DNA of 35,269 bases, taken from IMG/VR virus record IMGVR_UViG_2563366848_000003, one strand, 5' to 3'. The position numbers and the translations under genes are program-made. Origin of the DNA: a virus. Taxonomy: Duplodnaviria; Heunggongvirae; Uroviricota; Caudoviricetes. Below the pieces are notes generated by a model. That model was not told where the DNA came from, made no database searches, and saw only the letters and a list, made by a program, of their open reading frames with translations. Below, piece by piece: positions 7,182 through 25,646 of this stretch (position 1 is its first letter; the number at the start of each line of letters is the position of its first letter).

Positions 7182-7198
7182 TGCAAAATGTTTTATGT

Positions 7199-7220
7199 GA
7201 AACCGCCTGCGGGCGGTTTT
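7199..7220 (+). terminator. GC stem-loop followed by a T-run between I and J
   Basis: aaCCGCCtgcGGGCGGtttt; may attenuate transcription or serve as an RNA processing site. Confidence 0.35.
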
Positions 7221-7241
7221 ATCGTTTATGGAGCATGACGA

Positions 7242-10200
7242 ATGGGTAAAGGCAGCAGTAAGGGGCATACCCCGCGCGAAGCGAAGGACAACCTGAAGTC
7301 CACGCAGCTGCTGAGTGTGATCGATGCCATCAGCGAAGGGCCGGTTGAAGGTCCGGTGGATGGATTAAAAAGCGTGCTGCTGAACAGTACGCCGGTGCTG
7401 GACAGTGAGGGGAATACCAATATATCCGGCGTCACGGTGGTGTTCCGGGCCGGTGAGCAGGAGCAGACACCGCCGGAGGGATTTGAATCCTCCGGCTCCG
7501 AGACGGTGCTCGGTACAGAAGTGAAATATGACACGCCGATCACCCGGACCATCACGTCGGCAAACATTGACCGTCTGCGTTTTACTTTCGGCGTGCAGGC
7601 ACTGGTGGAAACCACCTCAAAGGGGGACAGGAATCCATCGGAAGTCCGCCTGCTGGTTCAGATACAACGTAACGGTGGCTGGGTGACGGAAAAAGACATC
7701 ACCATTAAGGGCAAAACCACCTCGCAGTATCTGGCCTCGGTGGTGGTGGGTAACCTGCCGCCGCGCCCGTTCAATATCCGGATGCGCAGGATGACGCCGG
7801 ACAGCACCACAGACCAGCTGCAGAACAAAACGCTCTGGTCGTCATACACCGAAATCATCGATGTGAAACAGTGCTACCCGAACACGGCACTGGTCGGCGT
7901 GCAGGTGGATTCGGAGCAGTTCGGCAGCCAGCAGGTGAGCCGTAATTATCATCTGCGCGGGCGCATTCTGCAGGTGCCGTCGAACTATAACCCGCAGACG
8001 CGGCAATACAGCGGTATCTGGGACGGAACGTTTAAGCCAGCATACAGCAACAACATGGCCTGGTGTCTGTGGGATATGCTGACCCATCCGCGCTACGGCA
8101 TGGGGAAACGTCTTGGTGCGGCGGATGTGGACAAATGGGCGCTGTATGTCATCGGCCAGCATTGCGATCAGTCGGTGCCGGACGGTTTTGGCGGCACGGA
8201 GCCGCGCATCACCTGTAATGCGTACCTGACCACACAGCGCAAGGCGTGGGATGTGCTCAGTGATTTCTGCTCTGCGATGCGCTGTATGCCGGTATGGAAC
8301 GGGCAGACGCTGACGTTCGTGCAGGACCGACCGTCGGATAAGGTGTGGACCTATAACCGCAGTAATGTGGTGATGCCGGATGATGGTGCGCCGTTCCGCT
8401 ACAGCTTCAGCGCCCTGAAGGACCGCCATAATGCCGTTGAGGTGAACTGGATTGACCCGAATAACGGCTGGGAGACGGCGACAGAGCTTGTGGAGGACAC
8501 GCAGGCCATTGCCCGTTACGGTCGTAACGTCACGAAGATGGATGCTTTTGGCTGTACCAGCCGGGGGCAGGCACACCGCGCCGGGCTGTGGCTGATTAAA
8601 ACAGAACTGCTGGAAACGCAGACCGTGGACTTCAGCGTGGGTGCCGAAGGGCTTCGCCATGTACCGGGCGATGTCATTGAAATCTGCGATGATGACTATG
8701 CCGGTATCCGCACCGGCGGGCGCGTGCTGGCGGTAAACAGCCAGACCCGGACGCTGACGCTCGACCGTGAAATCACGCTGCCATCTTCCGGCACCACGCT
8801 GATAAGCCTGGTTGACGGGCAGGGGAGTCCGGTCAGCGTGGAGGTTCAGTCCGTCACCGACGGCGTGAAGGTGAAAGTGAGCCGTGTTCCTGACGGCGTT
8901 GCTGAATACAGCGTATGGGGGCTGAAGCTGCCGACGTTGCGCCAGCGCCTGTTCCGCTGCGTGAGTATCCGTGAGAACGACGACGGCACGTATGCCATCA
9001 CCGCCGTGCAGCATGTACCGGAAAAAGAGGCCATCGTGGATAACGGGGCGCACTTTGACGGCGACCAGAGCGGCACGGTAAATGGTGTCACGCCGCCAGC
9101 GGTGCAGCACCTGACCGCAGAAGTCACCGCAGACAGCGGGGAATACCAGGTGCTGGCCCGCTGGGACACGCCGAAGGTGGTGAAGGGCGTGAGCTTCCTG
9201 CTTCGCCTGACCGTGGCAGCGGATGACGGCCGTGAGCGGCTGGTCAGCACGGCCCGGACGACGGAAACCACTTACCGCTTCACACAACTGGCTCTGGGGA
9301 ACTACAGGCTGACAGTCCGGGCAGTAAATGCGTGGGGGCAGCAGGGCGATCCGGCGTCGGTATCGTTCCGGATTGCCGCACCGGCAGCGCCGTCGCGGAT
9401 TGAGCTGACGCCGGGCTATTTTCAGATAACCGCCACGCCGCATCTTGCGGTTTATGACCCGACGGTACAGTTTGAGTTCTGGTTCTCGGAAAAACGGATT
9501 GCGGATATCAGGCAGGTTGAAACCAGCGCGCGTTATCTTGGTACGGCACTGTACTGGATAGCCGCCAGTATCAATATCAAACCGGGCCATGATTATTATT
9601 TTTACGTTCGCAGTGTGAACACCGTTGGCAAATCGGCATTCGTGGAGGCTGTCGGTCAGCCGAGTGATGATGCATCAGGCTATCTGGATTTTTTCAAAGG
9701 CGAGATAGGGAAAACCCATCTGGCTCAGGAGCTGTGGACGCAGATTGATAACGGTCAGCTTGCGCCTGACCTGGCTGAAATCAGGACGTCCATTACGGAT
9801 GTCAGCAATGAAATCACACAGACCGTCAATAAGAAACTGGAAGACCAGAGTGCAGCGATCCAGCAGATACAGAAGGTTCAGGTTGATACAAATAATAATC
9901 TGAACAGCATGTGGGCTGTGAAGCTGCAACAGATGAAGGACGGACGCCTTTATATTGCGGGTATCGGTGCCGGTATTGAGAATACGCCAGCAGGAATGCA
10001 GAGTCAGGTGCTGCTGGCGGCAGACAGGATTGCGATGATTAATCCTGCGAATGGCAACACAAAACCGATGTTTGTTGGTCAGGGTGATCAGATATTCATG
10101 AATGAAGTGTTCCTGAAGCGCCTGACGGCCCCCACCATTACCAGCGGCGGCAATCCTCCGGCCTTTTCCCTGACACCGGACGGAAAGCTGACCGCTAAAA

Positions 10201-11454: not shown

Positions 11455-14349
11455 ATGGCAGTACGGATTTCAGGTGTACTGAAAGATGGCGCAGGTAAGC
11501 CGATACAAAACTGCACCATTCAGCTAAAGGCCAGGCGCAACAGCACCACGGTGGTGGTGAACACAGTGGCCTCAGAAAACCCGGATGAAGCCGGGCGTTA
11601 CACAATGGACGTCGAGTATGGTCAGTACAGCGTCAGTCTGTTGGTGGAGGGATTCCCGCCGTCACACGCCGGGATTATCACCGTATATGAGGACTCAAAG
11701 CCGGGCACACTGAATGATTTCCTCGGTGCAATGACGGAGGATGATGTCCGGCCAGAGGCACTGCGCCGTTTTGAACTGATGGTGGAAGAGGTGGCGCGTA
11801 ACGCGTCCGCAGTGGCACAGAACACGGCAGCCGCGAAGAAGTCAGCCGGCGATGCCGGCACATCTGCCCGTGAGGCGGCAACCCATGCGACTGATGCTGC
11901 AGGCTCAGCACGCGCAGCCAGCACGTCAGCCGGACAGGCCGCTTCGTCGGCTCAGTCAGCGTCTTCCAGCGCAGGAACGGCATCAGCAAAGGCCACTGAA
12001 GCATCAAAAAGTGCTGCCGCTGCAGAGTCCTCAAAAAGCGCGGCGGCCACCAGTGCCGCTGCGGCAAAAACGTCAGAAACGAATGCGGCAGCGTCACAAC
12101 AATCAGCAGCCACTTCAGCATCCACCGCAACCACGAAAGCGTCAGAAGCTGCCACCTCAGCCCGGGATGCGTCGGCTTCAAAAGAGGCGGCAAAATCATC
12201 AGAAACGAGCGCAGCCTCGAGCGCCAGCAGCGCAGCTTCCTCGGCAACGGCGACAGCAAATTCTGCGAAGGCGGCAAAAACGTCCGAGACGAACGCCAAG
12301 GCTTCTGAAACGGCAGCGGGACAGAGTGCCTCAGCTGCGGCAGGCTCAAAAACAGCGGCTGCGTCGTCTGCCAGTGCCGCGTCAACAAGTGCCGGGCAGG
12401 CCTCAGCCAGTGCCACCGCCGCCGGAAAATCGGCAGAAAGTGCTGCATCGTCCGCTTCAACAGCCACAACGAAGGCTGGCGAAGCCGCTGTACAGGCCAG
12501 CGCAGCAGCGAGGTCTGCTTCCGCAGCGAAGACATCCGAAACGAATGCGAAAGCGTCGGAAACCCGTGCAGAATCCTCAAAAACGGCAGCCGCATCGTCC
12601 GCCAGTTCGGCAGCGTCATCGGCATCATCTGCGTCTGCTTCAAAAGATGAGGCGACCAGACAGGCGTCAGCAGCGAAGGGCAGCGCCACGACGGCATCCA
12701 CGAAAGCAACAGAGGCGGCAGGCAGTGCGACGGCAGCATCTCAGAGCAAAACTGCTGCTGAATCCGCTGCGACCCGTGCGGAAGCTGCTGCTGATCGTGC
12801 TGAAGAGATTGCCGGTGCAGTTGCGATGGAAGACGCAAGCCTTACAACTAAAGGTGTTGTGAAACTTAGCAGTGCTGTTGATAGCACCAGTGAATCGCTG
12901 GCCGCAACGCCAAAAGCAGTTAAAGCAGCCAATGACAATGCGAATAGCAGGGTGCCATCTAACCGAAAAGTTAACGGAAAAGCACTGACTGCGGATATAA
13001 CATTAACGCCGAAAGATATTGGTACTTTAAATTCAGTAACGATGTCTTTCTCTGGCGGGGCTGGGTGGTTCAAACTGGCTACGGTTACCATGCCACAAGC
13101 GAGTTCCATCGTTTACATCGCATTGATTGGTGGCGCTGGTTACAACGTCGGTTCCCCACATCAGGCAGGCATTTCAGAACTGGTTCTACGAGCAGGCAAT
13201 GGAAACCCCAAAGGAATTACCGGGGCTTTGTGGAAGCGTACAGCCGTCGGATTAACGAATTTCGCCTGGATCAACACATCCGGCGATACATATGATATTT
13301 ACGTTGAGATTGGCAATTATGCGACTCGTGTAAATATCCATTGGGATTGTACTGCAAATGCGACAGTTTCTATTTATACATCGCCAACATATTCAGCGAG
13401 TAAGCCTTCCAGCGTTACCGATGGTGTTGTTTATACGATGTATAGCACACATCAGAAACCGACGCCGTTAGATATTGGAGCACTGCCAACAACCGGAGGA
13501 ACAGTTTCAGGTCCGTTGTCTGTTACAGGTGGATTAACTGGTTCATTGAATGGTAATGCAAGTACAGCCACGAAATTGCAGACGGCAAGATCTATCGGTG
13601 GAGTTGTTTTCGACGGTTCTGCAAATATTAACCTTCCAGGTGTAAACACTACGGGTAATCAGAACACCACTGGTAATGCTGCAACTGCCACAAAACTACA
13701 GACTGCACGGAATATCAACGGCGTTCCGTTTGACGGCACGAAGGATATTACGCTTACGCCTAAAGATCTGGATGCCTACAGCAAAAGCGAAGTACAGAGC
13801 GCACTGGCGGGCAAACAACCGCTGGACAATACGCTGACTAATTTGAGTGGAAAGGATGTAGCTGGTCTTCTCGCATACCTTGGTTTGGGCGAAACGATAA
13901 ATAAAGCCTCCGGAGCTATGCAGAAATCGGCTAATGGAGCTGATATTTCTGATGTATCAGCCTTCCGAAATGCGCTCCAGTTAGGGACCGCCGCAACACG
14001 AGATGTTGGAGCAGATAATGCCTCGAAGTTACTGGATTTAGACAGCTTCAGGTCAATGATGTCAGGGAATGGCTACATCTACATTCCATGCATTGCGACG
14101 ACAGGAAACCCGGTGAAACTTATGTTGCAGTGGGGAACGGTGGCAACACAAAAGGGAGCTGATGCTGGATATGCCTTACCATTTGCTTTTCCCTATGCAG
14201 GCTTATTTGCGACCGGAAACCGTGGAACATCTGGCTACAATGCCGCGATGAATGTGCGTATTGCCAGCAGAACGCATATCAGTATTCAGAACTGGTCGCC
14301 ATCCGGAGAGGGCACCGAAGATTGTTGTTTTATCGCGCTGGGGTATTAA
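11455..14349 (+). CDS. stf: side tail fibre protein Stf (extended, 964 aa)
   Basis: N-terminus MAVRISGVLKDGAGKPIQNCTIQLKARRNSTTVVVNTVASENPDEAGRY as in lambda Stf; ~300-aa Ala/Ser/Thr-rich region; two phage tail fibre repeat motifs (ATKLQTAR-x-I-x-GV-x-FDG); distinct C-terminal domain ending ...FIALGY. Confidence 0.9.
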   Translation: MAVRISGVLKDGAGKPIQNCTIQLKARRNSTTVVVNTVASENPDEAGRYTMDVEYGQYSVSLLVEGFPPSHAGIITVYEDSKPGTLNDFLGAMTEDDVRPEALRRFELMVEEVARNASAVAQNTAAAKKSAGDAGTSAREAATHATDAAGSARAASTSAGQAASSAQSASSSAGTASAKATEASKSAAAAESSKSAAATSAAAAKTSETNAAASQQSAATSASTATTKASEAATSARDASASKEAAKSSETSAASSASSAASSATATANSAKAAKTSETNAKASETAAGQSASAAAGSKTAAASSASAASTSAGQASASATAAGKSAESAASSASTATTKAGEAAVQASAAARSASAAKTSETNAKASETRAESSKTAAASSASSAASSASSASASKDEATRQASAAKGSATTASTKATEAAGSATAASQSKTAAESAATRAEAAADRAEEIAGAVAMEDASLTTKGVVKLSSAVDSTSESLAATPKAVKAANDNANSRVPSNRKVNGKALTADITLTPKDIGTLNSVTMSFSGGAGWFKLATVTMPQASSIVYIALIGGAGYNVGSPHQAGISELVLRAGNGNPKGITGALWKRTAVGLTNFAWINTSGDTYDIYVEIGNYATRVNIHWDCTANATVSIYTSPTYSASKPSSVTDGVVYTMYSTHQKPTPLDIGALPTTGGTVSGPLSVTGGLTGSLNGNASTATKLQTARSIGGVVFDGSANINLPGVNTTGNQNTTGNAATATKLQTARNINGVPFDGTKDITLTPKDLDAYSKSEVQSALAGKQPLDNTLTNLSGKDVAGLLAYLGLGETINKASGAMQKSANGADISDVSAFRNALQLGTAATRDVGADNASKLLDLDSFRSMMSGNGYIYIPCIATTGNPVKLMLQWGTVATQKGADAGYALPFAFPYAGLFATGNRGTSGYNAAMNVRIASRTHISIQNWSPSGEGTEDCCFIALGY
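11850..12800 (+). repeat. intragenic low-complexity Ala/Ser/Thr coding repeats within stf
   Basis: Reiterated peptide units (AAKTSETNAKASE, SAASSASSAASSA) and matching DNA motifs such as gcggcaaaaacgtc[ac]ga[ag]acgaa at ~12061 and ~12274; similar unit at ~12523. These drive the long shadow ORFs on both strands (11678-12838, 11852-12862, 11952-12701). Confidence 0.8.
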
Positions 14350-14351
14350 GA

Positions 14352-14762
14352 ATGAATAAATTTTATAAAGGCTCTTTCTATCCGAAAGCACTAAAAGAGG
14401 TATATATCAGCGCCGGTTCATGGCCTGAAAATGGCGTTGATGTTGATGATGAAACAATGGCAATTTACACAGGCGTAGCGCCACAAGGCAAAACGCTGGG
14501 GGCTGATAAAAATGGTAATCCTGCGTGGATTGATATCCCGCCACTCTCCGCTGAACAACAGATTATTCAGGCTGAACAGAAAAGAACGGTATTGCGTTCT
14601 ATGGCTGATAAGGAAATAGCCTGGAGACAGGATGCTTTTGATGCGGAAATCGCGACGGCAGAAGAAACCGCCGCGTTATCTGAATGGAAAAAATACCGGG
14701 TCTTGCTGATGCGCGTTGATACAGCAAAACCCGTATGGCCTGTCAATCCGCAGGATATTTAA
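14352..14762 (+). CDS. tfa: tail fibre assembly protein Tfa
   Basis: ATG at 14352 directly after the stf stop (MNKFYKGSFYPKALKEVY...); conserved Tfa C-terminal motif ETAALSEWKKYRVLLMRVDTAKPVWPVNP. The tabulated start at 14322 overlaps stf and is less likely. Confidence 0.85.
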   Translation: MNKFYKGSFYPKALKEVYISAGSWPENGVDVDDETMAIYTGVAPQGKTLGADKNGNPAWIDIPPLSAEQQIIQAEQKRTVLRSMADKEIAWRQDAFDAEIATAEETAALSEWKKYRVLLMRVDTAKPVWPVNPQDI

Positions 14763-14976
14763 CGGGGGCGTTGTAGGTGGTGACATATTCAAGCAGTTCT
14801 GTTGGATATGTCACCGTTGCTGCATCTCGCTCTACGTTAAATGTATCCGCTCCCCAGATAACACACTCCCTCAAAAATGCCTCCACCTCTGGCGAGACTT
14901 CAACCGCATCATCAGGTCGCTCTTGTTCAGAAACATAAAAACCAACGGTCGTTGGGCTGAAATACATATTCTCCAT
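14743..14976 (-). pseudogene. inverted alternative tail-fibre assembly gene tfa' (N-terminal 77 aa only)
   Basis: Minus-strand ORF MENMYFSPTTVGFYVSEQ... has a Tfa-type N-terminus (YFS...GFY) but lacks the conserved Tfa C-terminal domain; its 3' end overlaps tfa. Confidence 0.45.
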
Positions 14977-14978
14977 AT

Positions 14979-15452
14979 TTAGTATCCTATTGCTTCAAAA
15001 TGCAAAGTCGGAATTTCGCCGAGATTGGGTGTCGTATACGACACAGTGAATCGCGTTCTTGATACGTCAGTGCCAGAATCAGTATCGCGATGCGTTGCCA
15101 GTGATTTCCCAGCCATTGTTGCCTGGGTCGAAAAGCTGTAACTCGCTAGTGTTGCCAGCGTTGCTATTTGTGCATTTGGGAATTGTCTGGGGAAATTAAC
15201 CCTGTAGTAATGGGTGTAGTACAGCACTCCACCAAGAGTAATTGCGTTGAAATTACCAACAGGCGTCAGTGTCACAGTACCAACCTGTCGAATCATACCA
15301 TTTGGGAGAATATCCCAGGCAGTTTGTCCGTTTCGCGACATACCAAATGCGGACATGTCCGGGAGTTGATTATTACCGGTTCCGACATTACGTTTTGCCG
15401 CTTCTCCCAATTGAACGTTTATGAAAATGCAGAAATAGCGCGCAAATGGCAT
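14979..15452 (-). pseudogene. inverted alternative tail-fibre C-terminal segment (Sv'-like), no start of its own
   Basis: Minus-strand frame ending ...PTLHFEAIGY, paralleling the stf C-terminus ...CCFIALGY and sharing a D-x-SAF motif. Position and orientation (stf-tfa / tfa'-Sv' / pin) match Mu G, P1 C and e14 P invertible segments. Confidence 0.5.
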
Positions 15453-15481
15453 CGTTCCTGTTTTTGTCAGGAGGAGCTATC

Positions 15482-15610
15482 ATGCTTATTGGCTATGTTC
15501 GCGTATCAACAAATGACCAGAACACAGATCTACAACGTAATGCGCTGAACTGTGCAGGATGCGAGCTGATTTTTGAAGACAAGATAAGCGGTACAAAGTC
15601 CGAAACCTAG
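15482..15610 (+). pseudogene. pin: truncated serine DNA invertase (Pin/Gin/Hin family), first 42 codons only
   Basis: MLIGYVRVSTNDQNTDLQRNALNCAGCELIFEDKISGTKSET* matches the N-terminus of Pin/Gin including the catalytic Ser in VRVSTNDQ; the frame stops at TAG 15608-15610 and similarity is lost thereafter. Confidence 0.8.
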
Positions 15611-15657
15611 GGCTGACACTGCTGTTCTTGTTGCAAATTAAAGGATTTAATAGTGAG

Positions 15658-15685
15658 TAGCGGCCTTACTAATGTAAGGCCGCTA
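15658..15685. terminator. perfect 12-bp-stem hairpin at the pin'/cargo junction
   Basis: TAGCGGCCTTACtaatGTAAGGCCGCTA lies 21 nt downstream of the minus-strand DUF262 gene stop and 48 nt after the pin' stop. Confidence 0.4.
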
Positions 15686-15705
15686 TAATCATTTTATTAA
15701 TTGCA

Positions 15706-17595
15706 TTAATCGTGTTTTGGCCATACTTTCAATGCAATTTCCCCCAACTTTTTACCCCGCTCCAGGATTTCATCCTCATCCCATTTATCCTTAACTATAA
15801 GTGGAATGTTCAGTCGTAGATTGGTGTGGACGATGAGAGCATCACGTTTTTTCAGAAATACAGCATTCTGAACAGAACGGTTTACGCTAAGGTTAAGCAA
15901 AGTTAGATTTCCCAACGTAGCTATCGCTTGTTGCCGTTTCCTTACCAGTAGCTGTTCTGGGGTAAGATCGGTTCCAGACAGAACAATTTGGTTCAATACC
16001 GTAGCATCTGAATTTGTCACCATATGACCATTTTCGAGAGGCCAACAGGAATACCAACTTTGAGGCATAAGATGATCGATATCGAGGTTAGAAAGATTTG
16101 GAACATCAGGCTTCTCTGTCTTCACTTGGCGACAAAGTTCTCTTTCAAGTTCCGTTAACATTGAGCGCATTTTCGGTGCGTCGAGCCTGCCAGGATAAAG
16201 TGGAGCATTGATGCAAGCGTTGAGAAATTCTGAGTCCCCAGGCCAACGTGAGGCTTCGCCATTTAAGCTATTGAGGATATTACGTAACTCAACACTGGAA
16301 ATTTCTGTTTTAGACAAGTGCCGCAATACATTCATAAATACATTGTTGTAATTCTTTGGCGTCAGGCCACATACGGCTCTTCGTACTACGTAGGAGACAA
16401 GATCATTATACATGGCTGCTTTCTCATCATCGGCGATGTTAGCTATCGAAATGAACAAAGCAAGCGGATAAAGTGTCGTCACATCATAGGCTGCGATGCG
16501 ATGTCCAAAGTGTGAGATGGGGGTTGTGCCAAAACCACCAACCAATTCTTTATATTGTGATGCATATTGTTTGAGGCGCTTTACTTGCAGATCTGCTCGT
16601 TGTGAAGGCAAGTCCTTACTTACATAATCACGATACTCATTGTAAAGACGAGACAGATCGATTTCACGTTGCCTTTCTGATTGCAATGTTGCATGCACTA
16701 GCCACTCCATGCGTGGTTTATTAATACGACCACGACGTTGTCTTTCTGACCAGTACGTATCTTCAAAGATCTTCCACTCATTCTCATATAATTCAACAGC
16801 ATTAATATTTTCATGTTCAGCGCACATAAAAATATAATTGCGAATAAGATCTGTGGCATGAAGTTCCGCACCTCTGCCATTTAATGTTTCAAAAATTATT
16901 TGAGCGTCATCTTCAGCCTCGAGAAATATGCTTACTAGTTTCAGATCCGTCAAGACAGCCTCAATTAATGCTACAGCATTTTCTCGTGGTGAGTGATTTT
17001 CTATTTTAATCCACTTTATAAAGGCTTCAGTAAAAAAACATAATGCTTCTAGTGATGGCGGGTGATTAAAATGCTTACGCAACGTACCATGCTGCGTGAA
17101 ACTATCAGAGAATACATTCCGGATATCGTCAATATTTTCAACATTAAAACTTTGAATAAAATGAGTTTGATCCCGAAAAGTTGGCCACAGTTTGAAGCGC
17201 TCTACTTCTTTATTTCGCATTGTGTCTTCGTTTGAGTTTTTCAGGCAAGACGAAATGAGAGGCTCTAAGTTGGAAAGATCTGTCGCACGTAATGCTAATC
17301 GGATGGATGCCAGAACATATTGAAGAGTGGTCAATCGTTGCTGACCATCAATAATATGTATGGAATCTACACCGAATAATCCTTTTTTTGGTTGAGGTTC
17401 CAGTACCACTGCACCAAGGAAATGGGGAGTTGGTTTTGTACCCGAGAGCCGGGATTGTGCTTTCTCTAGGATATCCTCCAGTAGAGCTGACCATTGGTTT
17501 CGCTGAGTCCATACATAGGCACGTTGATAGAATGGAACACAGTATTGTCGGCGGTCTTGAAAAAGTTGTTGGACAGTTAGCGTCTCGGATTTCAT
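15706..17595 (-). CDS. DUF262 (ParB-like NTPase, DGQQR) + DUF1524 (His-Me finger nuclease) protein; GmrSD-family putative type IV restriction endonuclease
   Basis: N-terminal motifs PFYQRAYVWT and IIDGQQRLTTL; C-terminal LDIDHLMPQS...N; about 630 aa. Start chosen at the ATG (17595) preceded by AGG, giving MKSETLTVQQLF...; an upstream in-frame ATG at 17655 has no SD. AT-rich relative to the flanking phage genes. Confidence 0.8.
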   Translation of the reverse strand: MKSETLTVQQLFQDRRQYCVPFYQRAYVWTQRNQWSALLEDILEKAQSRLSGTKPTPHFLGAVVLEPQPKKGLFGVDSIHIIDGQQRLTTLQYVLASIRLALRATDLSNLEPLISSCLKNSNEDTMRNKEVERFKLWPTFRDQTHFIQSFNVENIDDIRNVFSDSFTQHGTLRKHFNHPPSLEALCFFTEAFIKWIKIENHSPRENAVALIEAVLTDLKLVSIFLEAEDDAQIIFETLNGRGAELHATDLIRNYIFMCAEHENINAVELYENEWKIFEDTYWSERQRRGRINKPRMEWLVHATLQSERQREIDLSRLYNEYRDYVSKDLPSQRADLQVKRLKQYASQYKELVGGFGTTPISHFGHRIAAYDVTTLYPLALFISIANIADDEKAAMYNDLVSYVVRRAVCGLTPKNYNNVFMNVLRHLSKTEISSVELRNILNSLNGEASRWPGDSEFLNACINAPLYPGRLDAPKMRSMLTELERELCRQVKTEKPDVPNLSNLDIDHLMPQSWYSCWPLENGHMVTNSDATVLNQIVLSGTDLTPEQLLVRKRQQAIATLGNLTLLNLSVNRSVQNAVFLKKRDALIVHTNLRLNIPLIVKDKWDEDEILERGKKLGEIALKVWPKHD

Positions 17596-18065
17596 GGTAT
17601 ACCTGTAAGCGACATTGTACAAAAGTGAGGAGTTAATCTGATTTAGAACAATCATTTTATGTTGCTATGATACAACGTATTTGTTACCGGTTAAGTAAAA
17701 AACGCGTCTGAACGCTGACGTTTTAGGGCTTTACTAGTTATTCTTTCTTATCTCTTCATCATCCCATCGGCATCCTGTCGAGGTTGTTGACTTGTTGTTA
17801 TTTATTTTGTTTAGGCGCTGTTTAATTATTATTGATGGGACTGGTGGTGAGAGGTGATTGAAACCGCAGACAGGTCGTATGCAAGACGTGCTGCGGTTGG
17901 CTGATGCACTTTTGATAGTGCAAGTATTGAATGATTGCCAGTCACAGCGGATTGTACTTAGGTAATATGACGGTTCAAGGCGTTTAAACTGAAACCATCC
18001 ACATATCAGTCTCTTCAAACATTTCCTAAATCGTTCGGCTTATCTGTTCTTTCTCACGTTTGCTG

Positions 18066-18460
18066 ACGTCAGTGCTGATTGCCGGCAGTGTCATCATCGG
18101 TTTTACACGATACCCTTTGCGTTGAACGAGTCGTACTACTGTAACAGCGCGTCGGTGAAGCTGCTCATCCCGACACAGGACAGTCGGGATATCATTGCAG
18201 TAGCAACGGGGAGTCTGGATGCAATATGGAAAGACGGACACCGATATCAGAAAGCCGGGGTAATGCTGGGGGACTTCTTCAGTCAGAGCATGCCCTAACC
18301 TATTCGACGATAACGCGCTGGGTCCTGGGAGCGAAAAGTTAATGAGCGTGCTGGAGCACCTCAATGCAAAAGACGGGAAGGAAACACTCTGTTTCGCTGG
18401 GCAGGGCATTCAGCAGCAGTGGCAGATGAAACGCGAGATATTTTCGCACCGGTATACAAC
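18066..18460 (+). pseudogene. umuC: 3' remnant of umuC-like Y-family polymerase gene, frameshifted
   Basis: Translation reads ...RFYTIPFALNESYYCNSASVKLLIPTQDSRDIIAVATGSLDAIWKDGHRYQKAGVMLGDFFSQ then, after a frame break, ...LMSVLEHLNAKDGKETLCFAGQGIQQQWQMKRE..., matching the C-terminal ~120 aa of UmuC. No N-terminal portion or umuD is present. Confidence 0.6.
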
Positions 18461-18525
18461 TAGATTTTCTGGCATTTTAGGTGGTTAGATAGATATTTAT
18501 GCTCTACGCAATGAATATGAGAGAA

Positions 18526-19191
18526 TTAATTGTCTAAGCTGGTATAATATGAATAAAGGCTTTTTCCCATTATTTTCTCTAAATCCTTTTTGTTTCTAAA
18601 GAAAATGTTTGAGATATGCTGATGATAATACTTTATAATGATTCTCATCAGCGCCGATACTACTTCATGAAGTTTTTTCACCATTTTATGCTGTGTTGAA
18701 TTACAATCTCCCTCCATAAGTGATATAAATGTTGATGTAACATTTAGGTTCGCTTGGGGGGAGGAGTGAACATAATAACAGGCGTTGATATAGACATTAT
18801 GTAAATAAGACCAGCCTTCATCGACTTGTTGGGCTTTTAAGAAGTCAAAGTCTCTACGACGTACAGTTTGGTCAAAATCCCCACCATTGTAGTTCTTATT
18901 GAGGCTTATTCTGGCCACATGCTCCACCATTGAGCGGAAGTTCAGTTGGAGATACCGTTCTCTTTTTTTTATAATGGCAATTAAGGAGTTTAAGGTATCA
19001 TATATAAAACCTTTTATATAAGAAGAGTGATTTAGATTAGGATTGTGACTTAAAATTGTATTACAAAGACTTATTTGCCTAAATATTGATACTGATTTGT
19101 TTATTTCATCAGTGGTTCTGAGGTGCTTTTGCACCTCCGCTCTAAAATAATTTACATCTCTTCCAATGTTGAAGGGATCCTGCGTGAGCAT
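18526..19191 (-). CDS. hypothetical protein (221 aa), third gene of the ParA-like operon
   Basis: AT-rich ORF; its start overlaps the stop of the upstream 132-aa gene (translational coupling). No family recognised by eye. Confidence 0.6.
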   Translation of the reverse strand: MLTQDPFNIGRDVNYFRAEVQKHLRTTDEINKSVSIFRQISLCNTILSHNPNLNHSSYIKGFIYDTLNSLIAIIKKRERYLQLNFRSMVEHVARISLNKNYNGGDFDQTVRRRDFDFLKAQQVDEGWSYLHNVYINACYYVHSSPQANLNVTSTFISLMEGDCNSTQHKMVKKLHEVVSALMRIIIKYYHQHISNIFFRNKKDLEKIMGKSLYSYYTSLDN

Positions 19192-19589
19192 TATTCTTCT
19201 TCCTTTTTATTTGCATTAATCCAAATATTTAAATTCCTTATAGCATGCTTGCTTTTAGATGTGGATTTTTGGCTTGTTTTATTTGCATCATTAAAAATAA
19301 TGTCTAATGTGTTAATGTTGTTTAAGAAATGCGTATAAGCCATCTTTATGTCATTCTCACTTAATTCATTAATATGTCTGCAAATTTTAGCGCACATCAA
19401 AGTTCTTGACCGTACAGCATAATTCAAAAAAGATATTTTGAAGGTTTTGTTAATAAATTTACTAACATCAAAATTTGATCTAAAAACCTCTTTTGAAAGA
19501 ATCAACATAATTACCAAGCCTAAGAAGTTTTCTTTGGTCATGGGCATATTATTAGCTTTATTGAGCGCTTTAATTAATTGTTTATTCAT
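19191..19589 (-). CDS. hypothetical small protein (132 aa), second gene of the ParA-like operon
   Basis: Start overlaps the ParA-like gene 3' end by 8 nt; Lys/Asn-rich; no family recognised. Could be a small centromere-binding or adaptor protein. Confidence 0.5.
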   Translation of the reverse strand: MNKQLIKALNKANNMPMTKENFLGLVIMLILSKEVFRSNFDVSKFINKTFKISFLNYAVRSRTLMCAKICRHINELSENDIKMAYTHFLNNINTLDIIFNDANKTSQKSTSKSKHAIRNLNIWINANKKEEE

Positions 19590-20427
19590 TTGTGTTACCT
19601 TCCAAGTGAGCCACTCTGTTAATAAATTCGTTACAGATCTTTTCTATATCTTGGCGTGACTTTGAATAACAAGAAGGAATATTTCCTTGATAACCTACCA
19701 TTAAATCACGCACGTAGGTTAATTGATTTTCAAAGAAATAAAAATTTGTAAATTGAGTATGGTTTTCGAATTGTTCTTTAATTTCCCTTGTTTTATTGGT
19801 CATTTCAGCATCAGTGTTTGTATAAATGTAACCGACTTGCTTGATTTCTTTCTCATGATGTGTGCGCATATTTCTTATAACGCTATTTAAACTGCTTGCT
19901 CCAAGCACCGAGTAGTGATCAATTTTAACCGGAGTAAGATAATAATCAGAAGCAAGGAGTGCGGTATCTGTAAATAATGAGATTGTTGGGGGGCTATCGA
20001 TAAAGATATAGTCGTAACTTTCTTTTAAGTCATTTTCGGTGATGAATTTACGCAACATTTTTATTCTAATACCCTCTTGGTTAGTATCAAAGATAATGTT
20101 TATATCACCTAAGATAATATCAAGATTGTCTGAAACTTTAGTAATGACCTGTTCTGGTGTCACTTTCTTTTCATCTTCCATTAATGAATTTGGAAGCTCA
20201 AAAATCTTTCGAATGGTTTGATTATTAGGGCGAAGGGCAGTCATATATTCTTCTACTCGATCATAATGCCCCATTAAGGACTGAGTGGCATTAAATTGAG
20301 GATCAATATCGATAACTAGAACCTTGCGCCCCATATGGTTGGCTAAAAACTCAGCAATCCCAACGCATAAAGTTGTTTTACCAACCCCACCTTTCATATT
20401 GATAAAACTAATTACTGGTGCAGTCAT
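19582..20427 (-). CDS. ParA/MinD-family P-loop ATPase (deviant Walker A)
   Basis: N-terminal FINMKGGVGKTTLCVGIAEFLA (KGGxGKT deviant Walker A), VIDIDPQ and downstream DSPP motifs typical of ParA/Soj; SD AAGGA 6-8 nt upstream of the ATG at 20427. Confidence 0.8.
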   Translation of the reverse strand: MTAPVISFINMKGGVGKTTLCVGIAEFLANHMGRKVLVIDIDPQFNATQSLMGHYDRVEEYMTALRPNNQTIRKIFELPNSLMEDEKKVTPEQVITKVSDNLDIILGDINIIFDTNQEGIRIKMLRKFITENDLKESYDYIFIDSPPTISLFTDTALLASDYYLTPVKIDHYSVLGASSLNSVIRNMRTHHEKEIKQVGYIYTNTDAEMTNKTREIKEQFENHTQFTNFYFFENQLTYVRDLMVGYQGNIPSCYSKSRQDIEKICNEFINRVAHLEGNTNE

Positions 20428-21220: not shown

Positions 21221-21383
21221 TCTCAACTTCCTCAAACGTCCATATTTGTCCATAAATACCCTGATTTATAAAGACTTTTCTGCTTTTAAGTCCATCTTTG
21301 TCCGTAACCATCCAGTAGAATCCGATACGGAATGTGTATAGGATTGTGTATATGTTTCTGTTCTGTCCTGGATTCCTATACAC

Positions 21384-22553
21384 ATGCCTTTAAACGATAT
21401 GCAGATTCGTCGCGCTAAGCCTGAAGAGAAACCCTATACGCTTGGGGATGGTCAAGGCTTGTCATTACTTATAGAACCTAATGGGAGCAAGAGCTGGCGG
21501 TTTCGCTATCGCTATGCCGGTAAACCCAAAATGATCTCGCTTGGTGTTTACCCAACGATCACCCTTGCCGATGCTCGTTCCCGTCGTGACGAAGCCCGCA
21601 AATTGGTCGCCGAAGGAAAGAATCCGAGTGAGGTTCGAAAAGAGCAGAAGATTGCTTTGCAAACCGAGTCTGAAAGCGCGTTCGAAAAGATAGCGACAGA
21701 GTGGCACCAGATGAAATCTGCCAAATGGTCGGCCGGTTATGCATCAGACATCATGGAAGCTTTTCAGAACGATATTTTCCCTTATGTAGGTAAAAGGCCA
21801 ATTGGCGAAATAAAACCGCTAGAATTGCTTAATGTGCTGCGTAAAATTGAAAAACGAGGTGCGTTGGAGAAAATGCGGAAAGTGCGACAGCGTTGCTCGG
21901 AGGTTTTCCGTTATGCCATTGCTACAGGTAGAGCCGAGTTTAATCCTGCGGCAGATCTCTCAAGTGCCCTCGAAGTGCATCAATCCAATCATTTCCCGTT
22001 CCTTAAAGCTGATGAGTTACCTGATTTTTTGCGTGCTCTAGACAGTTACACAGGGAGTCGGCTTGTCCTTATTGCTACGAAGTTACTGATGATTACGGGC
22101 GTAAGAACCATTGAATTACGTGCAGCTTTATGGTCGGAATTTGATCTGGATAACGCTATTTGGGAAATACCAGCAGAAAGGATGAAAATGCGTAGGGCAC
22201 ACCTTGTGCCACTATCGACTCAAGCGTTAGATTTACTTAATGAACTCAAAGCGATGACAGGAAACTACCGTTATGTTTTTCCTGGACGAAATGATCCGAA
22301 TAAGCCAATGAGTGAGGCAAGTGTAAACCAAGTAATCAAACGCATTGGCTTTGGTGGCAAGGTTACAGGGCACGGATTCAGACATTCAATGTCTACTATT
22401 TTGCATGAGCAAGGATTTGAATCGAGTTGGATAGAGATGCAATTAGCTCATGTTGATAAAAACAGTATCCGAGGCACTTATAACCATGCTCAGTATTTTG
22501 ATAAACGCAGAGTTATGATGCAGTGGTATGCTGATTATGTACAGGGGAAATAA
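21384..22553 (+). CDS. int: P4-type tyrosine integrase
   Basis: 389-aa ORF with the P4-type N-terminal domain (IRRAKPEEKPYTLGDGQGLSLLIEPNGSKSWRFRYRYAGKPK) and a C-terminal catalytic domain (HGFRHSMSTILHEQGF ... HVDKNSIRGTYNHAQY); lies 164 bp downstream of the tRNA fragment. Confidence 0.95.
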   Translation: MPLNDMQIRRAKPEEKPYTLGDGQGLSLLIEPNGSKSWRFRYRYAGKPKMISLGVYPTITLADARSRRDEARKLVAEGKNPSEVRKEQKIALQTESESAFEKIATEWHQMKSAKWSAGYASDIMEAFQNDIFPYVGKRPIGEIKPLELLNVLRKIEKRGALEKMRKVRQRCSEVFRYAIATGRAEFNPAADLSSALEVHQSNHFPFLKADELPDFLRALDSYTGSRLVLIATKLLMITGVRTIELRAALWSEFDLDNAIWEIPAERMKMRRAHLVPLSTQALDLLNELKAMTGNYRYVFPGRNDPNKPMSEASVNQVIKRIGFGGKVTGHGFRHSMSTILHEQGFESSWIEMQLAHVDKNSIRGTYNHAQYFDKRRVMMQWYADYVQGK

Positions 22554-24053
22554 ATGCAAACTTCGAGAGCTATTAATAAAAATGTCGGGGGAAATGACTC
22601 TGAAAAATATCTTTCTAAGCTGTGTGAAAGAACTTTTTTAAGCTTGTGGAGTTATCCAAATGTTTATACTGATGAAGGAAAAAAAACGGCGTCGGGAGAT
22701 GGGAAGGAACTCTGTGATCTTCTAGTTGTATTTGAAAATCATGTCATAATATTTTCCGATAAAGATATTTCGTTTAAGGATTCAGGGGATTTAAAAGTTG
22801 ATTGGGGGCGTTGGGTTAAAAGGGCTGTTATTAAATCCGCAGTTCAACTTTATGGTGCCGAGTCATCATTAAAAGAGAGACCCGGTAGGTTATTTCTTGA
22901 TGCTAAGTGTAATGTCCCTTTTCCAATTAAAGTGCCAAAGTGTGACGAAATTATCGTTCACCGAATTGCTGTTGCAAAGAATGCATCAAAAAAATTCCAA
23001 GAGCATTCTGGCGGTTCTGGGAGTTTGATTATATGTCCGCGCATAGTGGGAAACCAACATTTTGATACTCCGTTTATGATCGGTCAGCCCATTGCTGACA
23101 AGCCTTATGTGCATGTTTTTGATGATATTGCTTTAGATATTATACTTTCTGAACTCGATACAATTGCTGATTTTATAGATTATCTTAGTAAGAAGGAAGA
23201 ATTTATTGCTTCAGGAGGACTAAACTCGGCAGCGGGAGAGGAAGAACTTTTAGCATGGTACTATATAAATGCTAAAGATGGGCGTGAGCCGGGGTTTTAT
23301 ATAGAGAAAGGAGTATCAGCTTTGATTGTTGAGGGGGCCTATGAATCTCTTAAAAACCTTCCTCAGTTTATTAGAGGGAAAGAACTAAATTCTAATTCTT
23401 ATTTTTGGGATGCCTGTATAGAAAATTTTGCGAAACATATGCTTAGTGGGACAATATTGTCCGAAGGGGATTTTTCATTTGATGAGATGACTCGTGGTCT
23501 AAGAATTATGGCATCCGAGACGAGATTTTCAAGGCGTATACTATCAAATGCAATAATTGAAAAAGTCACCTCCATCCCTCATGGGCAAAGAGGTGTTAGA
23601 GTTTTGGTCTCTCCCAGTAACAGCGATAATGGGTATGTTTGGCTAGTGGTTCCGGTGCCAGAATGTTGCACATCATATGATGACTATAGAAAATATCGTA
23701 AAGATACTCTCTCTGTTTACTGTGCTTCAGCAAAGCTACTTTTCCCGGATATGAAATATATAGTTGGAGTTGCCACAGAACCGATGGGGGGGAATGGAGG
23801 GGAAGATATGGTGTTTATTGATTCAACTCAGTGGACAGAGGATGACTACGAAAGAGCTCGAAAAGATAGAGATGAATTTAAAGCTTTACTTCCGGATAAT
23901 ATTAAAAGAACTGATGATCACGATTATCAATTCCCTATTCTTCCTGGAGACTATCCTGAAAAAGAAACTTTAAGGGTTGAAAAGAATAGTAAGGCTAGAA
24001 TAAAACGAATTAAAAAGGCGCAAAAAAAAGCCCGTAGAAATAACAGAAAATGA
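22554..24053 (+). CDS. hypothetical protein (499 aa), cargo at the integrase-proximal position; possible nuclease-like N-terminal region, basic C-terminal tail
   Basis: ATG immediately follows the int stop (TAAATG) with SD AGGGGA; AT-rich. N-terminal segment ELCDLLVVFENHVIIFSDKD is loosely reminiscent of a PD-(D/E)xK core (unverified); C-terminus KNSKARIKRIKKAQKKARRNNRK is highly basic. Confidence 0.7.
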   Translation: MQTSRAINKNVGGNDSEKYLSKLCERTFLSLWSYPNVYTDEGKKTASGDGKELCDLLVVFENHVIIFSDKDISFKDSGDLKVDWGRWVKRAVIKSAVQLYGAESSLKERPGRLFLDAKCNVPFPIKVPKCDEIIVHRIAVAKNASKKFQEHSGGSGSLIICPRIVGNQHFDTPFMIGQPIADKPYVHVFDDIALDIILSELDTIADFIDYLSKKEEFIASGGLNSAAGEEELLAWYYINAKDGREPGFYIEKGVSALIVEGAYESLKNLPQFIRGKELNSNSYFWDACIENFAKHMLSGTILSEGDFSFDEMTRGLRIMASETRFSRRILSNAIIEKVTSIPHGQRGVRVLVSPSNSDNGYVWLVVPVPECCTSYDDYRKYRKDTLSVYCASAKLLFPDMKYIVGVATEPMGGNGGEDMVFIDSTQWTEDDYERARKDRDEFKALLPDNIKRTDDHDYQFPILPGDYPEKETLRVEKNSKARIKRIKKAQKKARRNNRK

Positions 24054-24091
24054 GTTATGATCAAATCAAGGGCCTTTTTAAGGCCTTTGAA

Positions 24092-24874
24092 TCAATCTTT
24101 GGCGTGTGATTTAAATTTAAATGATATTTTTCTCTTGGTATTTCTTAAGGATTTTGAAATTCGCCATTTTAAATTGAATAAAGTATCCAATAGCTTTTCT
24201 GAGTTCTGCTTATTTAGTAGTCTGTGTTCTTGTCTTATCATAAGGAATATTTCAAGGTATGGGTCGTCAATTTTTTCTTCCAGTTCTTCACAAGAGTAGC
24301 TGTTGACACGTTCAAGAGCGATATATTCCATCCTTATCTCATTTGGTTCCCTTAAACTTGTTTTTTCCCATTCTAATCTAATTGGCTTACTAAAAAGGGA
24401 TATGTTCTCCTTAATATGTGCCATAACACGTCTAAAACGATTGTTAAATTCTTCATTATCAGTATGCATAACTGGTGATTGATTTCCTAATAATGTTGAA
24501 CTTTTTTCTCTTTGGAATTTGTAATATTCCTCTGATACTTTTTTGCTAAAGCTGGCTTGATCTGATTTATTCTTGAAGCTTATATGTTCATAACTATCCG
24601 GACCATATATTTGTTCCATCCAGTGCAACTGACTAAATTGATTGACGGCTTGTTCTAAATCTTTATCTTCTGATGTGTATGTTTTCTGTGATTTTATTTT
24701 GTAGTCGAAAAGTAGTAAGTCGCAAACATCGAAGTAGATTTTGTCATAAGTTCTTAGACGTTCTATTTTTCTATTGTATTTTGACTGGCGAATGGTATTT
24801 AAAAATCCTAGGCAGGATATGATAAAACCACCTATAGAAATATATAAAGAAATTGAAGTGTTATCCTGCACCAA
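24092..24874 (-). CDS. hypothetical membrane-anchored protein (260 aa) with an N-terminal transmembrane helix
   Basis: N-terminus MVQDNTSISLYISIGGFIISCLGFLNTI is a predicted TM helix followed by a charged domain of unknown function. Convergent with the 499-aa gene (38-bp gap); AT-rich. Confidence 0.65.
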   Translation of the reverse strand: MVQDNTSISLYISIGGFIISCLGFLNTIRQSKYNRKIERLRTYDKIYFDVCDLLLFDYKIKSQKTYTSEDKDLEQAVNQFSQLHWMEQIYGPDSYEHISFKNKSDQASFSKKVSEEYYKFQREKSSTLLGNQSPVMHTDNEEFNNRFRRVMAHIKENISLFSKPIRLEWEKTSLREPNEIRMEYIALERVNSYSCEELEEKIDDPYLEIFLMIRQEHRLLNKQNSEKLLDTLFNLKWRISKSLRNTKRKISFKFKSHAKD

Positions 24875-24980
24875 CTTTCTCCCCTCTGAAAAATAGAATT
24901 CTTAAACCTAAAATTAATTGCATCTTCGGATAAGCTTTTCTATCTCAAAAAATTTAAATGGTCAACTATATTGGTGCGCA

Positions 24981-24999
24981 ATGCTCTCCCCGCCACGCC
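24981..24999 (-). other. P2/P4-type cos-like site
   Basis: Reverse complement GGCGTGGCGGGGAGAGCAT matches the P2/P4 19-nt cohesive end GGCGAGGCGGGGAAAGCAC (recalled from memory) at 16 of 19 positions; located between the integrase-side cargo and psu, where cos sits in integrated P4. Confidence 0.5.
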
Positions 25000-25004
25000 T
25001 GCCC
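24987..25004. repeat. 18-bp direct repeat ccccgccacgcctgcccg, copy 1 (overlaps the cos-like site)
   Basis: Identical 18-mer found again at 25433-25450. Confidence 0.8.
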
Positions 25005-25432
25005 GTTTAAGAAGTCGCTTTTAATGCCGTTGCAACGGCGTACTCTGGCCGCGCCGCGAATGGCGCTAGCAGGGATTACAGCGACAGGAAAACACCTGCA
25101 AAACCATGCCTCGTTTGGATGCATTGCTTAAATCGGGAAAAATGACGGTATTTAGGAGGGGCAGGTTACTGAGCGGTAGTTCGGCGCGGTTATGGAGGTA
25201 AATTACACTCTATTCATTCGTGAAATTTTTAAAATTTTTTCACCCATCAAGCAGCGTCAAGCTTGGAATACTTGCTACCACGCTGTTCTGCACTAACCTG
25301 CTGATCTTCGCCCTTGTTCCTTATGTTTCAACAGCGCACCGCAGAGGCGAGATTCCCCCCGTCTTGACCATGCCAGCTCGTTGAAATTTGAAAAGATAAG
25401 CACCATTTAACATCTTAGCGCGCGCTCGTAGC

Positions 25433-25450
25433 CCCGCCACGCCTGCCCGC
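25433..25450. repeat. 18-bp direct repeat ccccgccacgcctgcccg, copy 2
   Basis: Identical to 24987-25004; the flanking sequence diverges from the cos consensus. Confidence 0.8.
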
Positions 25451-25602
25451 TTTATGTAGTGGTTTTCATGCAGGTGCATGAACGGTTCTCATCCATGCCG
25501 CGTGCGGTCTGAGAGGTAAAAATACCAGTACATAAAGTCATGCGGTTTCATGCAGCATAGCCATGCACTCTCAGCATCAACGGGAAAGTCAGAAAGTTGG
25601 CA

Positions 25603-25627
25603 TAAAAAACCGGCATAAAAGCCGGTT
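25603..25627 (-). terminator. rho-independent terminator downstream of the delta-like gene
   Basis: On the minus strand: AACCGGCttttatGCCGGTT followed by TTTTT, about 20 nt after the delta stop. Confidence 0.55.
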
Positions 25628-25646
25628 CGAGGATTGCTTTGAGCCG

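What the first reader, a model, noticed from the sequence alone, without database searches (positions are those of the whole stretch)
15482..17660. GmrSD-like DUF262/DUF1524 nuclease gene replacing the 3' part of the pin invertase gene
The pin reading frame ends after 42 codons. Immediately downstream, on the opposite strand and separated by a perfect 12-bp-stem hairpin, lies a ~630-aa DUF262 + DUF1524 protein, the architecture of GmrSD-type modification-dependent (type IV) restriction enzymes. This parallels prophage e14, where the type IV enzyme gene mcrA follows pin, pointing to the invertase-distal prophage end as a recurring defence locus. The insertion appears to have inactivated tail-fibre switching.
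Basis: partly seen in the sequence, partly recalled or inferred. Interest (0 to 1): 0.6.

Follow-up and report, generated by a model that had tools for sequence, protein, structure and literature searches.

The report
Known GmrSD restriction gene beside truncated pin
The gene is an ordinary allele of GmrSD, the well-studied E. coli prophage enzyme that cuts the sugar-modified DNA of T4-like phages. Its place next to a cut-off tail-fibre invertase gene is the standard, already reported setting of this enzyme.

Summary
A 42-codon pin stub (15482-15610), a perfect 12-bp hairpin (15658-15685) and a convergent 629-aa DUF262+DUF1524 gene (15706-17595, minus strand) are all present.

The gene is GmrSD itself, not merely GmrSD-like. 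It is 606/629 aa identical to the characterised UTI89 enzyme. It has DGQQR at 83-87 and D507/H508/N522 at the positions mutated in Eco94GmrSD. It matches PADLOC's type IV model end to end (1439 bits).

The gene occurs in 306 of 5426 complete E. coli genomes, and 303 have the same pin-stub junction. The literature already places gmrSD next to tail-fibre genes and a phage invertase.

Two nearly identical prophages, both with the dead pin and the same IS3 insertion, differ by a precise inversion at the centres of the 26-bp crossover sites. So flipping still occurs, presumably through invertases from other prophages.

Small additions:
- The stop codon comes from a 1-nt deletion; pin homology runs to about 15632.
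- The stub keeps the region that corresponds to the Fis enhancer.
- The same slot holds rnlAB, mcrA or a restriction-modification (RM) system in other prophages.

Verdict: already known, low interest.

The parts
13868..13893 (.). Left 26-bp crossover site (pixL) inside the side-tail-fibre gene: TTCTCGCATACC|TT|GGTTTGGGCGAA
   Evidence: Found by fuzzy matching to the site next to pin. Strain WCHEC005784 carries the reciprocal hybrid sites expected after inversion.
13881..15414 (.). Invertible tail-fibre segment, about 1.53 kb. It holds the Stf C-terminal variable part, tfa (14322-14762, +), a short alternative ORF (14743-14976, -) and the alternative gp53-like fibre tip (14979-15452, -).
   Evidence: ORFs and Pfam hits Caudo_TAP and Gp53-like_C. 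The segment lies in the opposite orientation in Res13 and WCHEC005784, with breakpoints at the site centres.
15402..15427 (.). Right 26-bp crossover site (pixR): TTCTCCCAATTG|AA|CGTTTATGAAAA
   Evidence: Unique in the window, 0 expected by chance. It differs at 3 positions from the K-12 e14 site next to pinE.
15482..15610 (+). pin stub: 42 codons of a Pin/Gin-family serine invertase. The catalytic-serine region is present; the rest of the catalytic domain and the DNA-binding domain are absent.
   Evidence: Pfam Resolvase, profile positions 2-48 of 145. Alignment with intact pinE genes. RefSeq annotates it as an incomplete 'recombinase family protein'.
15503..15566 (.). Putative Fis-dependent recombinational enhancer retained inside the stub. 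Two candidate 15-bp Fis sites, 15503-15517 and 15552-15566.
   Evidence: Inference only. These stretches are nearly invariant between pin and Mu gin, including third codon positions. The first lies about 95 bp from the pixR centre. The native Hin enhancer lies about 100 bp from hixL (PMC3798978).
15633..17937 (.). gmrSD cassette of about 2.3 kb that replaced the 3' part of pin. It comprises the terminator hairpin, the gene and about 340 bp of upstream sequence.
   Evidence: Left edge: loss of pin homology. Right edge: homology to the UTI89 and PK8276 loci ends at 17939 and 17935. GC is 36-44%, against 45-62% in the tail-fibre region.
15658..15685 (.). Perfect 12-bp hairpin between the convergent pin stub and gmrSD. 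It is probably the gmrSD terminator and lies in cassette DNA, not in pin DNA.
   Evidence: The core GGCCTTAC/GTAAGGCC is conserved in the UTI89 and PK8276 loci.
15706..17595 (-). gmrSD: single-chain type IV modification-dependent restriction endonuclease, 629 aa (RefSeq WP_000834404.1)
   Evidence: Pfam GmrSD_N and GmrSD_C. PADLOC mREase_IV 1439 bits over 1-629/629. 606/629 identical to UTI89_C2960. DGQQR at 83-87; D507, H508, N522 present. The exact protein is recorded on 708 contigs.
17596..17937 (-). Non-coding upstream region of gmrSD with a promoter-like site: TTAACC, 16-nt spacer, TATCAT at 17694-17667.
   Evidence: Consensus scan only. The -10 hexamer is invariant in three alleles, while indels of 9, 5 and 7 nt argue against coding.

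Best explanation
The locus is the standard prophage-borne gmrSD cassette of E. coli.

**The enzyme.** The 629-aa protein is a stand-alone type IV restriction endonuclease. By family knowledge, its N-terminal ParB/Srx-like DUF262 domain (DGQQR motif) binds or hydrolyses NTP. Its C-terminal DUF1524 His-Me finger (D507-H508...N522) cuts DNA that carries glucosyl-5-hydroxymethylcytosine or 5-hydroxymethylcytosine. That would exclude T-even phages unless they inject a matching inhibitor such as IPI*.

**The cassette.** About 2.3 kb (hairpin terminator, gene and its own upstream region) replaced the 3' three-quarters of a Pin-family invertase gene in one old event. Since then the unit has travelled together with the pin stub between unrelated prophage types.

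**The stub.** It cannot make an invertase. The adjacent tail-fibre segment keeps both 26-bp crossover sites and probably the Fis enhancer inside the stub. It is still flipped, most likely by Pin-family invertases encoded elsewhere in the cell.

**Shown here:** identity, motifs, junction, distribution, and precise inversion between near-identical prophages.
**Inferred:** enzymatic activity of this allele, promoter, terminator, enhancer function, and which invertase acts in trans.
For: **Family and motifs**
- Pfam GmrSD_N and GmrSD_C both score above their cut-offs.
- PADLOC mREase_IV matches full length at 1439 bits.
- The protein is 96% identical to the UTI89 enzyme and 594/629 identical to the PK8276 allele.
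- DGQQR, D507, H508 and N522 are present. These are the positions shown by mutagenesis to be critical in the 629-aa Eco94GmrSD (PMC4437046).

**Distribution**
- The gene is in 306 of 5426 genomes.
- The pin-stub/hairpin/gmrSD junction is in 303.

**Cassette boundaries**
- The same junction and the same right end occur in a lambdoid prophage (window, TL-14), in an SfII/e14-like myovirus-type prophage at ssrA (UTI89), and in a third tail type next to retron Ec67 (PK8276).

**Inversion**
- L011 and L007 are 100% identical over the 3582-nt left flank.
- The 2852-nt segment, including the shared IS3, is inverted at 99.965% identity.
- The 7101-nt right flank is 99.93% identical.
- The crossover sites are reciprocal hybrids.
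- Both chromosomes have two further loci that match the pin 3' half.
- PinQ of prophage Qin has been shown to invert the e14 segment in trans (PMC12529663).
Against: - No experiment was done on this allele.
- It differs from the UTI89 enzyme at 23 residues, and the three alleles compared differ mostly within residues 1-205 of the DUF262 domain. Phage range and inhibitor sensitivity therefore cannot be read off. The UT and CT/Eco94 enzymes are reported to differ in exactly these respects (PMC4437046).
- The promoter is only a 9/12 consensus match, and such matches were not enriched over shuffles.
- The hairpin has no clean T-run on the gmrSD strand.
- The extra pin-like loci were not checked for intactness.
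- Assemblies report only the majority orientation of an invertible segment.
Confidence: 0.9

Rival explanations
1. The gene is an unexpressed or inactive relic riding in a decaying prophage and no longer provides restriction.
For: The surrounding prophage shows decay: dinI and umuC fragments, and an IS3 in the tail-fibre segment in some strains. In NDM6 the gene was lost next to IS903B. No sequenced phage in the phage collection carries the cassette.
Against: The reading frame is intact and all catalytic residues are present. The identical protein is seen on 708 contigs. 300 of 306 genomes cover at least 80% of the gene. In strain IH5 the cassette survives although almost all of the prophage is gone, as expected for a selected gene. 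Close alleles are active in vivo and in vitro (PMC4437046).
Confidence: 0.06
2. The protein works as part of a larger system, as BrxU does within BREX or SspE within Ssp, or together with the neighbouring ParA-like three-gene cluster.
For: PADLOC also gives weaker hits to HEC-06, Orf5 and SspE models. A low-GC three-gene cluster with a ParA-like ATPase lies 0.9 kb away at 18526-20427.
Against: The SspE hits cover only the N-terminal ~120 residues. No BREX or Ssp genes are in the window. The UTI89 and PK8276 cassettes lack the ParA cluster and have other neighbours. Eco94GmrSD restricts when expressed alone (PMC4437046).
Confidence: 0.03
3. The two orientations seen in prophages with the dead pin arose by homologous recombination with another prophage carrying the segment in the other orientation, not by site-specific inversion in trans. 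Switching would then be frozen.
For: Tail-fibre modules are exchanged between prophages: identity to the window drops from 99.7-99.8% in the segment and right flank to 92-95% left of pixL in L007. The same segment occurs in P2-like and SfII-like prophages.
Against: Strains 164 and WCHEC005784 share the same IS3 insertion inside the segment and have 100% identical left flanks. The breakpoints fall on the 2-nt centre of the 26-bp sites, with reciprocal hybrid half-sites. That is the signature of serine-invertase exchange. Trans action of Pin-family enzymes is documented (PMC12529663).
Confidence: 0.1

Closest known systems
EcoUTI89 GmrSD (UTI89_C2960, the 'UT enzyme')
   Same: 629 aa, 606/629 identical, same motifs. 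It has the same pin-stub/hairpin junction and the same cassette right end, followed by a dinI-like pseudogene.
   Different: 23 substitutions. It is carried by an SfII/e14-like contractile-tail prophage at ssrA, whereas the window's copy is in a lambdoid prophage beside yagP/pao.
Eco94GmrSD / EcoCT596 GmrSD (prototype, inhibited by T4 IPI*)
   Same: 629-aa single chain. Catalytic D507/H508/N522 are at identical positions. It is prophage-borne and lies immediately downstream of tail-fibre genes (PMC4437046).
   Different: Whether the window allele is IPI*-sensitive is unknown.
e14 pinE-mcrA (E. coli K-12)
   Same: A type IV restriction gene in the slot just beyond the tail-fibre invertase at the prophage end.
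   Different: In e14, pinE is intact, mcrA runs in the same direction as pin, and McrA is an unrelated HNH enzyme that targets methylated cytosine.
BrxU (GmrSD-family enzyme embedded in BREX) and SspE
   Same: DUF262 plus DUF1524 architecture and modification-dependent cleavage (PMC8565348 and PMC12373910, listed).
   Different: Only distant sequence similarity: PADLOC SspE hits cover the N-terminus only, and no PDB hit except 9jfl at E 1.6e-07. The window's gene is stand-alone.
Phage Mu gin-com-mom
   Same: An invertible tail-fibre segment, then the invertase, then cargo for the DNA-modification arms race at the genome end.
   Different: The Mu cargo is an anti-restriction DNA modification function, and gin is intact.

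Membership tests
GmrSD type IV restriction endonucleases | N-terminal DUF262 (ParB/Srx-like) domain with the near-invariant DGQQR motif | tested here: met
   Pfam GmrSD_N E 7.8e-34, full profile 1-199. DGQQR at residues 83-87. The motif definition comes from PMC4619093.
GmrSD type IV restriction endonucleases | C-terminal DUF1524 His-Me finger with (D/E/H)HxxP and a downstream catalytic Asn | tested here: met
   Pfam GmrSD_C E 5.1e-20. DHLMP at 507-511 and N522. D507, H508 and N522 are critical in Eco94GmrSD (PMC4437046).
GmrSD type IV restriction endonucleases | Close sequence relationship to an experimentally characterised member | tested here: met
   606/629 identical to the UTI89 enzyme with no gaps. 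PADLOC mREase_IV 1439 bits over 1-629/629.
GmrSD type IV restriction endonucleases | Stand-alone, with no cognate methyltransferase | tested here: met
   The cassette 15633-17937 holds one gene. No methyltransferase domain was found in the ORFs scanned across 14322-34432. The cassette neighbours differ in UTI89 and PK8276.
GmrSD type IV restriction endonucleases | NTP-stimulated cleavage of glc-5hmC / 5hmC DNA and restriction of T-even phages | not testable with these tools
   Requires phage plating and nuclease assays. Known for the Eco94, CT596 and UT alleles (PMC4437046).
Pin/Gin/Hin/Cin DNA invertases (applied to the pin stub) | Complete serine-recombinase catalytic domain plus C-terminal helix-turn-helix, about 185-190 aa | tested here: not met
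   Only 42 codons, matching Resolvase profile positions 2-48 of 145. Intact PinE is 184 aa.
Pin/Gin/Hin/Cin DNA inversion systems (cis elements) | Two inverted 26-bp crossover sites flanking the segment | tested here: met
   Sites at 13868-13893 and 15402-15427. Reciprocal hybrid sites occur in the inverted state.
Pin/Gin/Hin/Cin DNA inversion systems (cis elements) | Fis-bound recombinational enhancer about 100 bp from one crossover site | tested here: inconclusive
   Candidate sites at 15503-15517 and 15552-15566 lie in stretches invariant between pin and gin and at the right distance (PMC3798978). No binding or functional test was possible.
BREX-associated BrxU / Ssp-associated SspE | Embedded in a BREX or Ssp (phosphorothioate) gene cluster | tested here: not met
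   No such genes were found in the window. SspE models match only the first ~120 residues.

The most novel reading that the evidence does not exclude
The slot just beyond the tail-fibre invertase may be a cassette-exchange hotspot shared by unrelated prophage morphotypes. Defence genes such as gmrSD, rnlAB, mcrA and RM systems would be swapped there by recombination anchored in the conserved crossover site and pin 5' end. On this reading the pin stub is kept because it carries the Fis enhancer, not as debris. That would let the tail-fibre segment go on switching with invertases borrowed from co-resident prophages.
Probability: 0.3. Interest if true: 0.35.

Novelty: already known. Interest (0 to 1): 0.15.

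Why it matters
There is little new here.

- GmrSD is the founding glucosyl-hmC-dependent restriction enzyme.
- Its prophage location beside tail-fibre and invertase genes is published.
- This allele is common in sequenced E. coli.

The practical value is in annotation. RefSeq calls the gene only 'DUF262 domain-containing protein', so strains carrying it should be flagged as likely resistant to T-even-type therapeutic phages that lack a matching inhibitor.

Two minor additions concern prophage evolution. The truncated-pin junction is a fixed hallmark of the cassette. Tail-fibre inversion also outlives the loss of the cis invertase.

Tried and rejected
- Default inverted-repeat searches did not reveal the crossover sites. 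They were found only by fuzzy matching to the site next to pin.
- A first guess that the sequence TCGTTCCTGTTTTTGTCAGGAGG just upstream of pin was the crossover site was dropped. It has no partner anywhere in the window.
- The Rfam scan of 15300-18600 gave only chance hits far below the gathering scores.
- The PDB sequence search gave one weak hit, 9jfl at E 1.6e-07, and no close structure.
- NCBIfam has no model for the protein.
- The phage collection holds no phage with the cassette, only pin 5' matches.
- The 2007 papers by Bair, Rifat and Black could not be read because they are not held. I therefore cannot say whether the truncation of the invertase was noted there.
- I did not run the large protein-database searches or structure prediction, because 96% identity to a characterised enzyme made them unnecessary.
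Full report
**1. What is in the sequence**

The window is the tail end of a lambdoid prophage. It carries tape-measure, L, J, Lom and a 964-aa side tail fibre, and it is colinear with a prophage of E. coli TL-14 that lies next to yagP/paoABCD.

The reported elements are all present.
- At 15482 a reading frame starts MLIGYVRVSTNDQ and stops after 42 codons at 15608-15610. It matches only the first third of the Pfam Resolvase profile.
- A perfect 12-bp stem with a TAAT loop lies at 15658-15685. It is far more stable than shuffled sequence, z about -7.
- On the minus strand, 15706-17595 encodes a 629-aa protein with Pfam GmrSD_N (DUF262) and GmrSD_C (DUF1524).
- An upstream in-frame ATG at 17655 would give 649 aa. 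RefSeq, the literature and the PADLOC model all use the 629-aa form.

**2. What the gene is**

It is GmrSD itself, not a distant GmrSD-like protein.
- The PADLOC model 'mREase_IV' matches residues 1-629 of 629 with 1439 bits.
- The DNA is 96.6% identical to UTI89_RS14420, which corresponds to UTI89_C2960, the 'UT enzyme'. The protein is 606/629 identical to it, without gaps.
- DGQQR lies at 83-87 and DHLMP at 507-511. D507, H508 and N522 occupy the positions shown by mutagenesis to be critical in the 629-aa Eco94GmrSD (PMC4437046).
- The exact protein is recorded on 708 contigs.
- The gene is present in 306 of 5426 complete E. coli genomes, always on the chromosome.
- RefSeq names it only 'DUF262 domain-containing protein', WP_000834404.1.

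The mechanism follows from the family. A ParB/Srx-like NTP-binding N-terminal domain and a His-Me finger nuclease cut glucosyl-hmC and hmC DNA, which excludes T-even phages unless they inject a matching inhibitor (PMC4437046, PMC4619093, PMC12373910). This allele's activity is inferred, not shown. Across the three alleles compared, substitutions concentrate in residues 1-205. Phage range and inhibitor sensitivity therefore cannot be predicted.

**3. The junction with pin**

- Alignment with intact pin genes (K-12 e14, Res13, E223) shows clean homology up to about 15605 and decayed homology to about 15632, roughly pin codon 50.
- The stop at codon 43 results from a 1-nt deletion. The PK8276 allele lacks it and reads 61 codons.
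- The same junction is found in UTI89 and PK8276. Homology among the three loci ends on the far side at 17935-17939.
- The cassette is therefore about 2.3 kb (15633-17937): hairpin, gene and about 340 bp of non-coding upstream DNA.
- A query spanning pin stub, hairpin and the gmrSD 3' end is covered by at least 80% in 303 genomes, against 306 with the gene. The truncation is thus one old event that travels with the cassette.
- The hosts differ: a lambdoid prophage (window, TL-14), an SfII/e14-like contractile-tail prophage at ssrA (UTI89), and a third tail type next to retron Ec67 (PK8276).
- In strain IH5 the cassette persists although the prophage is almost gone. In NDM6 it was lost next to IS903B.
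- No phage genome in the phage collection carries it.

**4. Is tail-fibre switching dead?**

The cis invertase is dead, but the segment still flips.
- The two 26-bp crossover sites are intact at 13868-13893 and 15402-15427.
- Strain 164 (L011) and strain WCHEC005784 (L007) carry the same prophage, both with the truncated pin and gmrSD.
- Their left flanks are 100% identical over 3582 nt, and their right flanks are 99.93% identical over 7101 nt.
- The 2852-nt block between the site centres, including a shared IS3 insertion, is inverted with one mismatch.
- The sites in the two states are exact reciprocal hybrids of each other.
- The inversion therefore happened after the IS3 insertion, long after the pin truncation, which is shared with the 95.5%-identical UTI89 locus.
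- Both chromosomes contain two further loci matching the pin 3' half that the stub lacks. Trans action of a Pin-family enzyme on another prophage's segment is published: PinQ acts on e14 (PMC12529663).

The stub retains 15503-15566. These stretches are invariant between pin and Mu gin even at third codon positions. They lie about 95 bp from the pixR centre, and the Hin enhancer lies about 100 bp from hixL (PMC3798978). That the stub still supplies the Fis enhancer is my inference and is untested.

**5. Is the slot a recurring defence locus?**

In a small sample, yes.

| Locus | Cargo beyond the invertase |
|---|---|
| e14 and relatives | mcrA |
| SfII-like prophages | GIY-YIG gene, then Dcm methyltransferase and type II endonuclease |
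| O55:H7 CB9615 and ECZP248 | a protein annotated DUF4145 in ECZP248 (hypothetical in CB9615) |
| Mu | com-mom |
| 5CRE51, same lambdoid prophage as the window | pin cut at about codon 96, then rnlAB |

The 5CRE51 case is a second, independent replacement that also bites into pin. In a P2-like prophage (E223) the invertase lies between the fibre and sheath genes, with no cargo. This is a sample, not a census.

**6. Comparison with the literature and verdict**

- He et al. [quoted passage not shown]
- Machnicka et al. 2015, citing Bair et al. [quoted passage not shown]

The gene, its function and its neighbourhood are thus known. The following may not have been stated explicitly:
- The invertase is a stub with a fixed junction.
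- The stop comes from a 1-nt deletion.
- The stub probably keeps the enhancer.
- Inversion continues in trans.
- rnlAB can occupy the same slot.

These are incremental points. Novelty: already known. Interest: low.

Noticed in passing
window 21222-34716: A 13.5-kb insertion relative to strain TL-14 that looks like a P4-like satellite. It has an integrase (21384-22553), Psu (25903-26475), a second Psu-like gene (29051-29812), Ash, DUF5375 and a primase/D5 protein (32042-34432), and is interrupted by IS21 istA/istB (26570-28872).
   Followed up: partly
window 22554-24874: Two low-GC ORFs lie between the satellite's integrase and psu: 22554-24053 (+, 499 aa) and 24092-24874 (-, 260 aa). From memory, this is the position of the P4 defence hotspot. 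Neither has a Pfam, PADLOC or NCBIfam hit; the first matches only PHROG 18195 of unknown function. They are candidate uncharacterised defence cargo.
   Followed up: partly
window 18526-20427 (minus strand): A very low-GC (28-37%) three-gene cluster: a 221-aa and a 132-aa protein of unknown function (PHROGs 7540 and 6264) plus a ParA-like AAA_31 ATPase of 281 aa. No PADLOC system matches. It sits between the gmrSD cassette and the satellite and is conserved in TL-14, strain 164, WCHEC005784 and IH5.
   Followed up: partly
window 18026-18488: Fragments of a dinI-family gene (18026-18112, -) and of a umuC-like DUF4113 gene (18107-18488, +). Both are annotated as pseudogenes in the equivalent TL-14 locus. 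UTI89 also has a dinI-like pseudogene right after the cassette.
   Followed up: no
L010 (E. coli 5CRE51) 6383-8230: In the same lambdoid prophage, pin is truncated at about codon 96 and followed by the rnlA-rnlB toxin-antitoxin pair in place of gmrSD.
   Followed up: partly
L003 (E. coli PK8276) 3369-5203: A retron Ec67-family reverse transcriptase/endonuclease gene lies directly beyond the gmrSD cassette, so two defence genes are stacked at the prophage end.
   Followed up: no
L007 and L011, inside the invertible segment (window equivalent about 15212-15216): An IS3-family element is inserted in the alternative fibre-tip gene in several strains. It served here as a time marker for the inversion. 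The blast blocks overlap by about 5 nt at the insertion point.
   Followed up: partly
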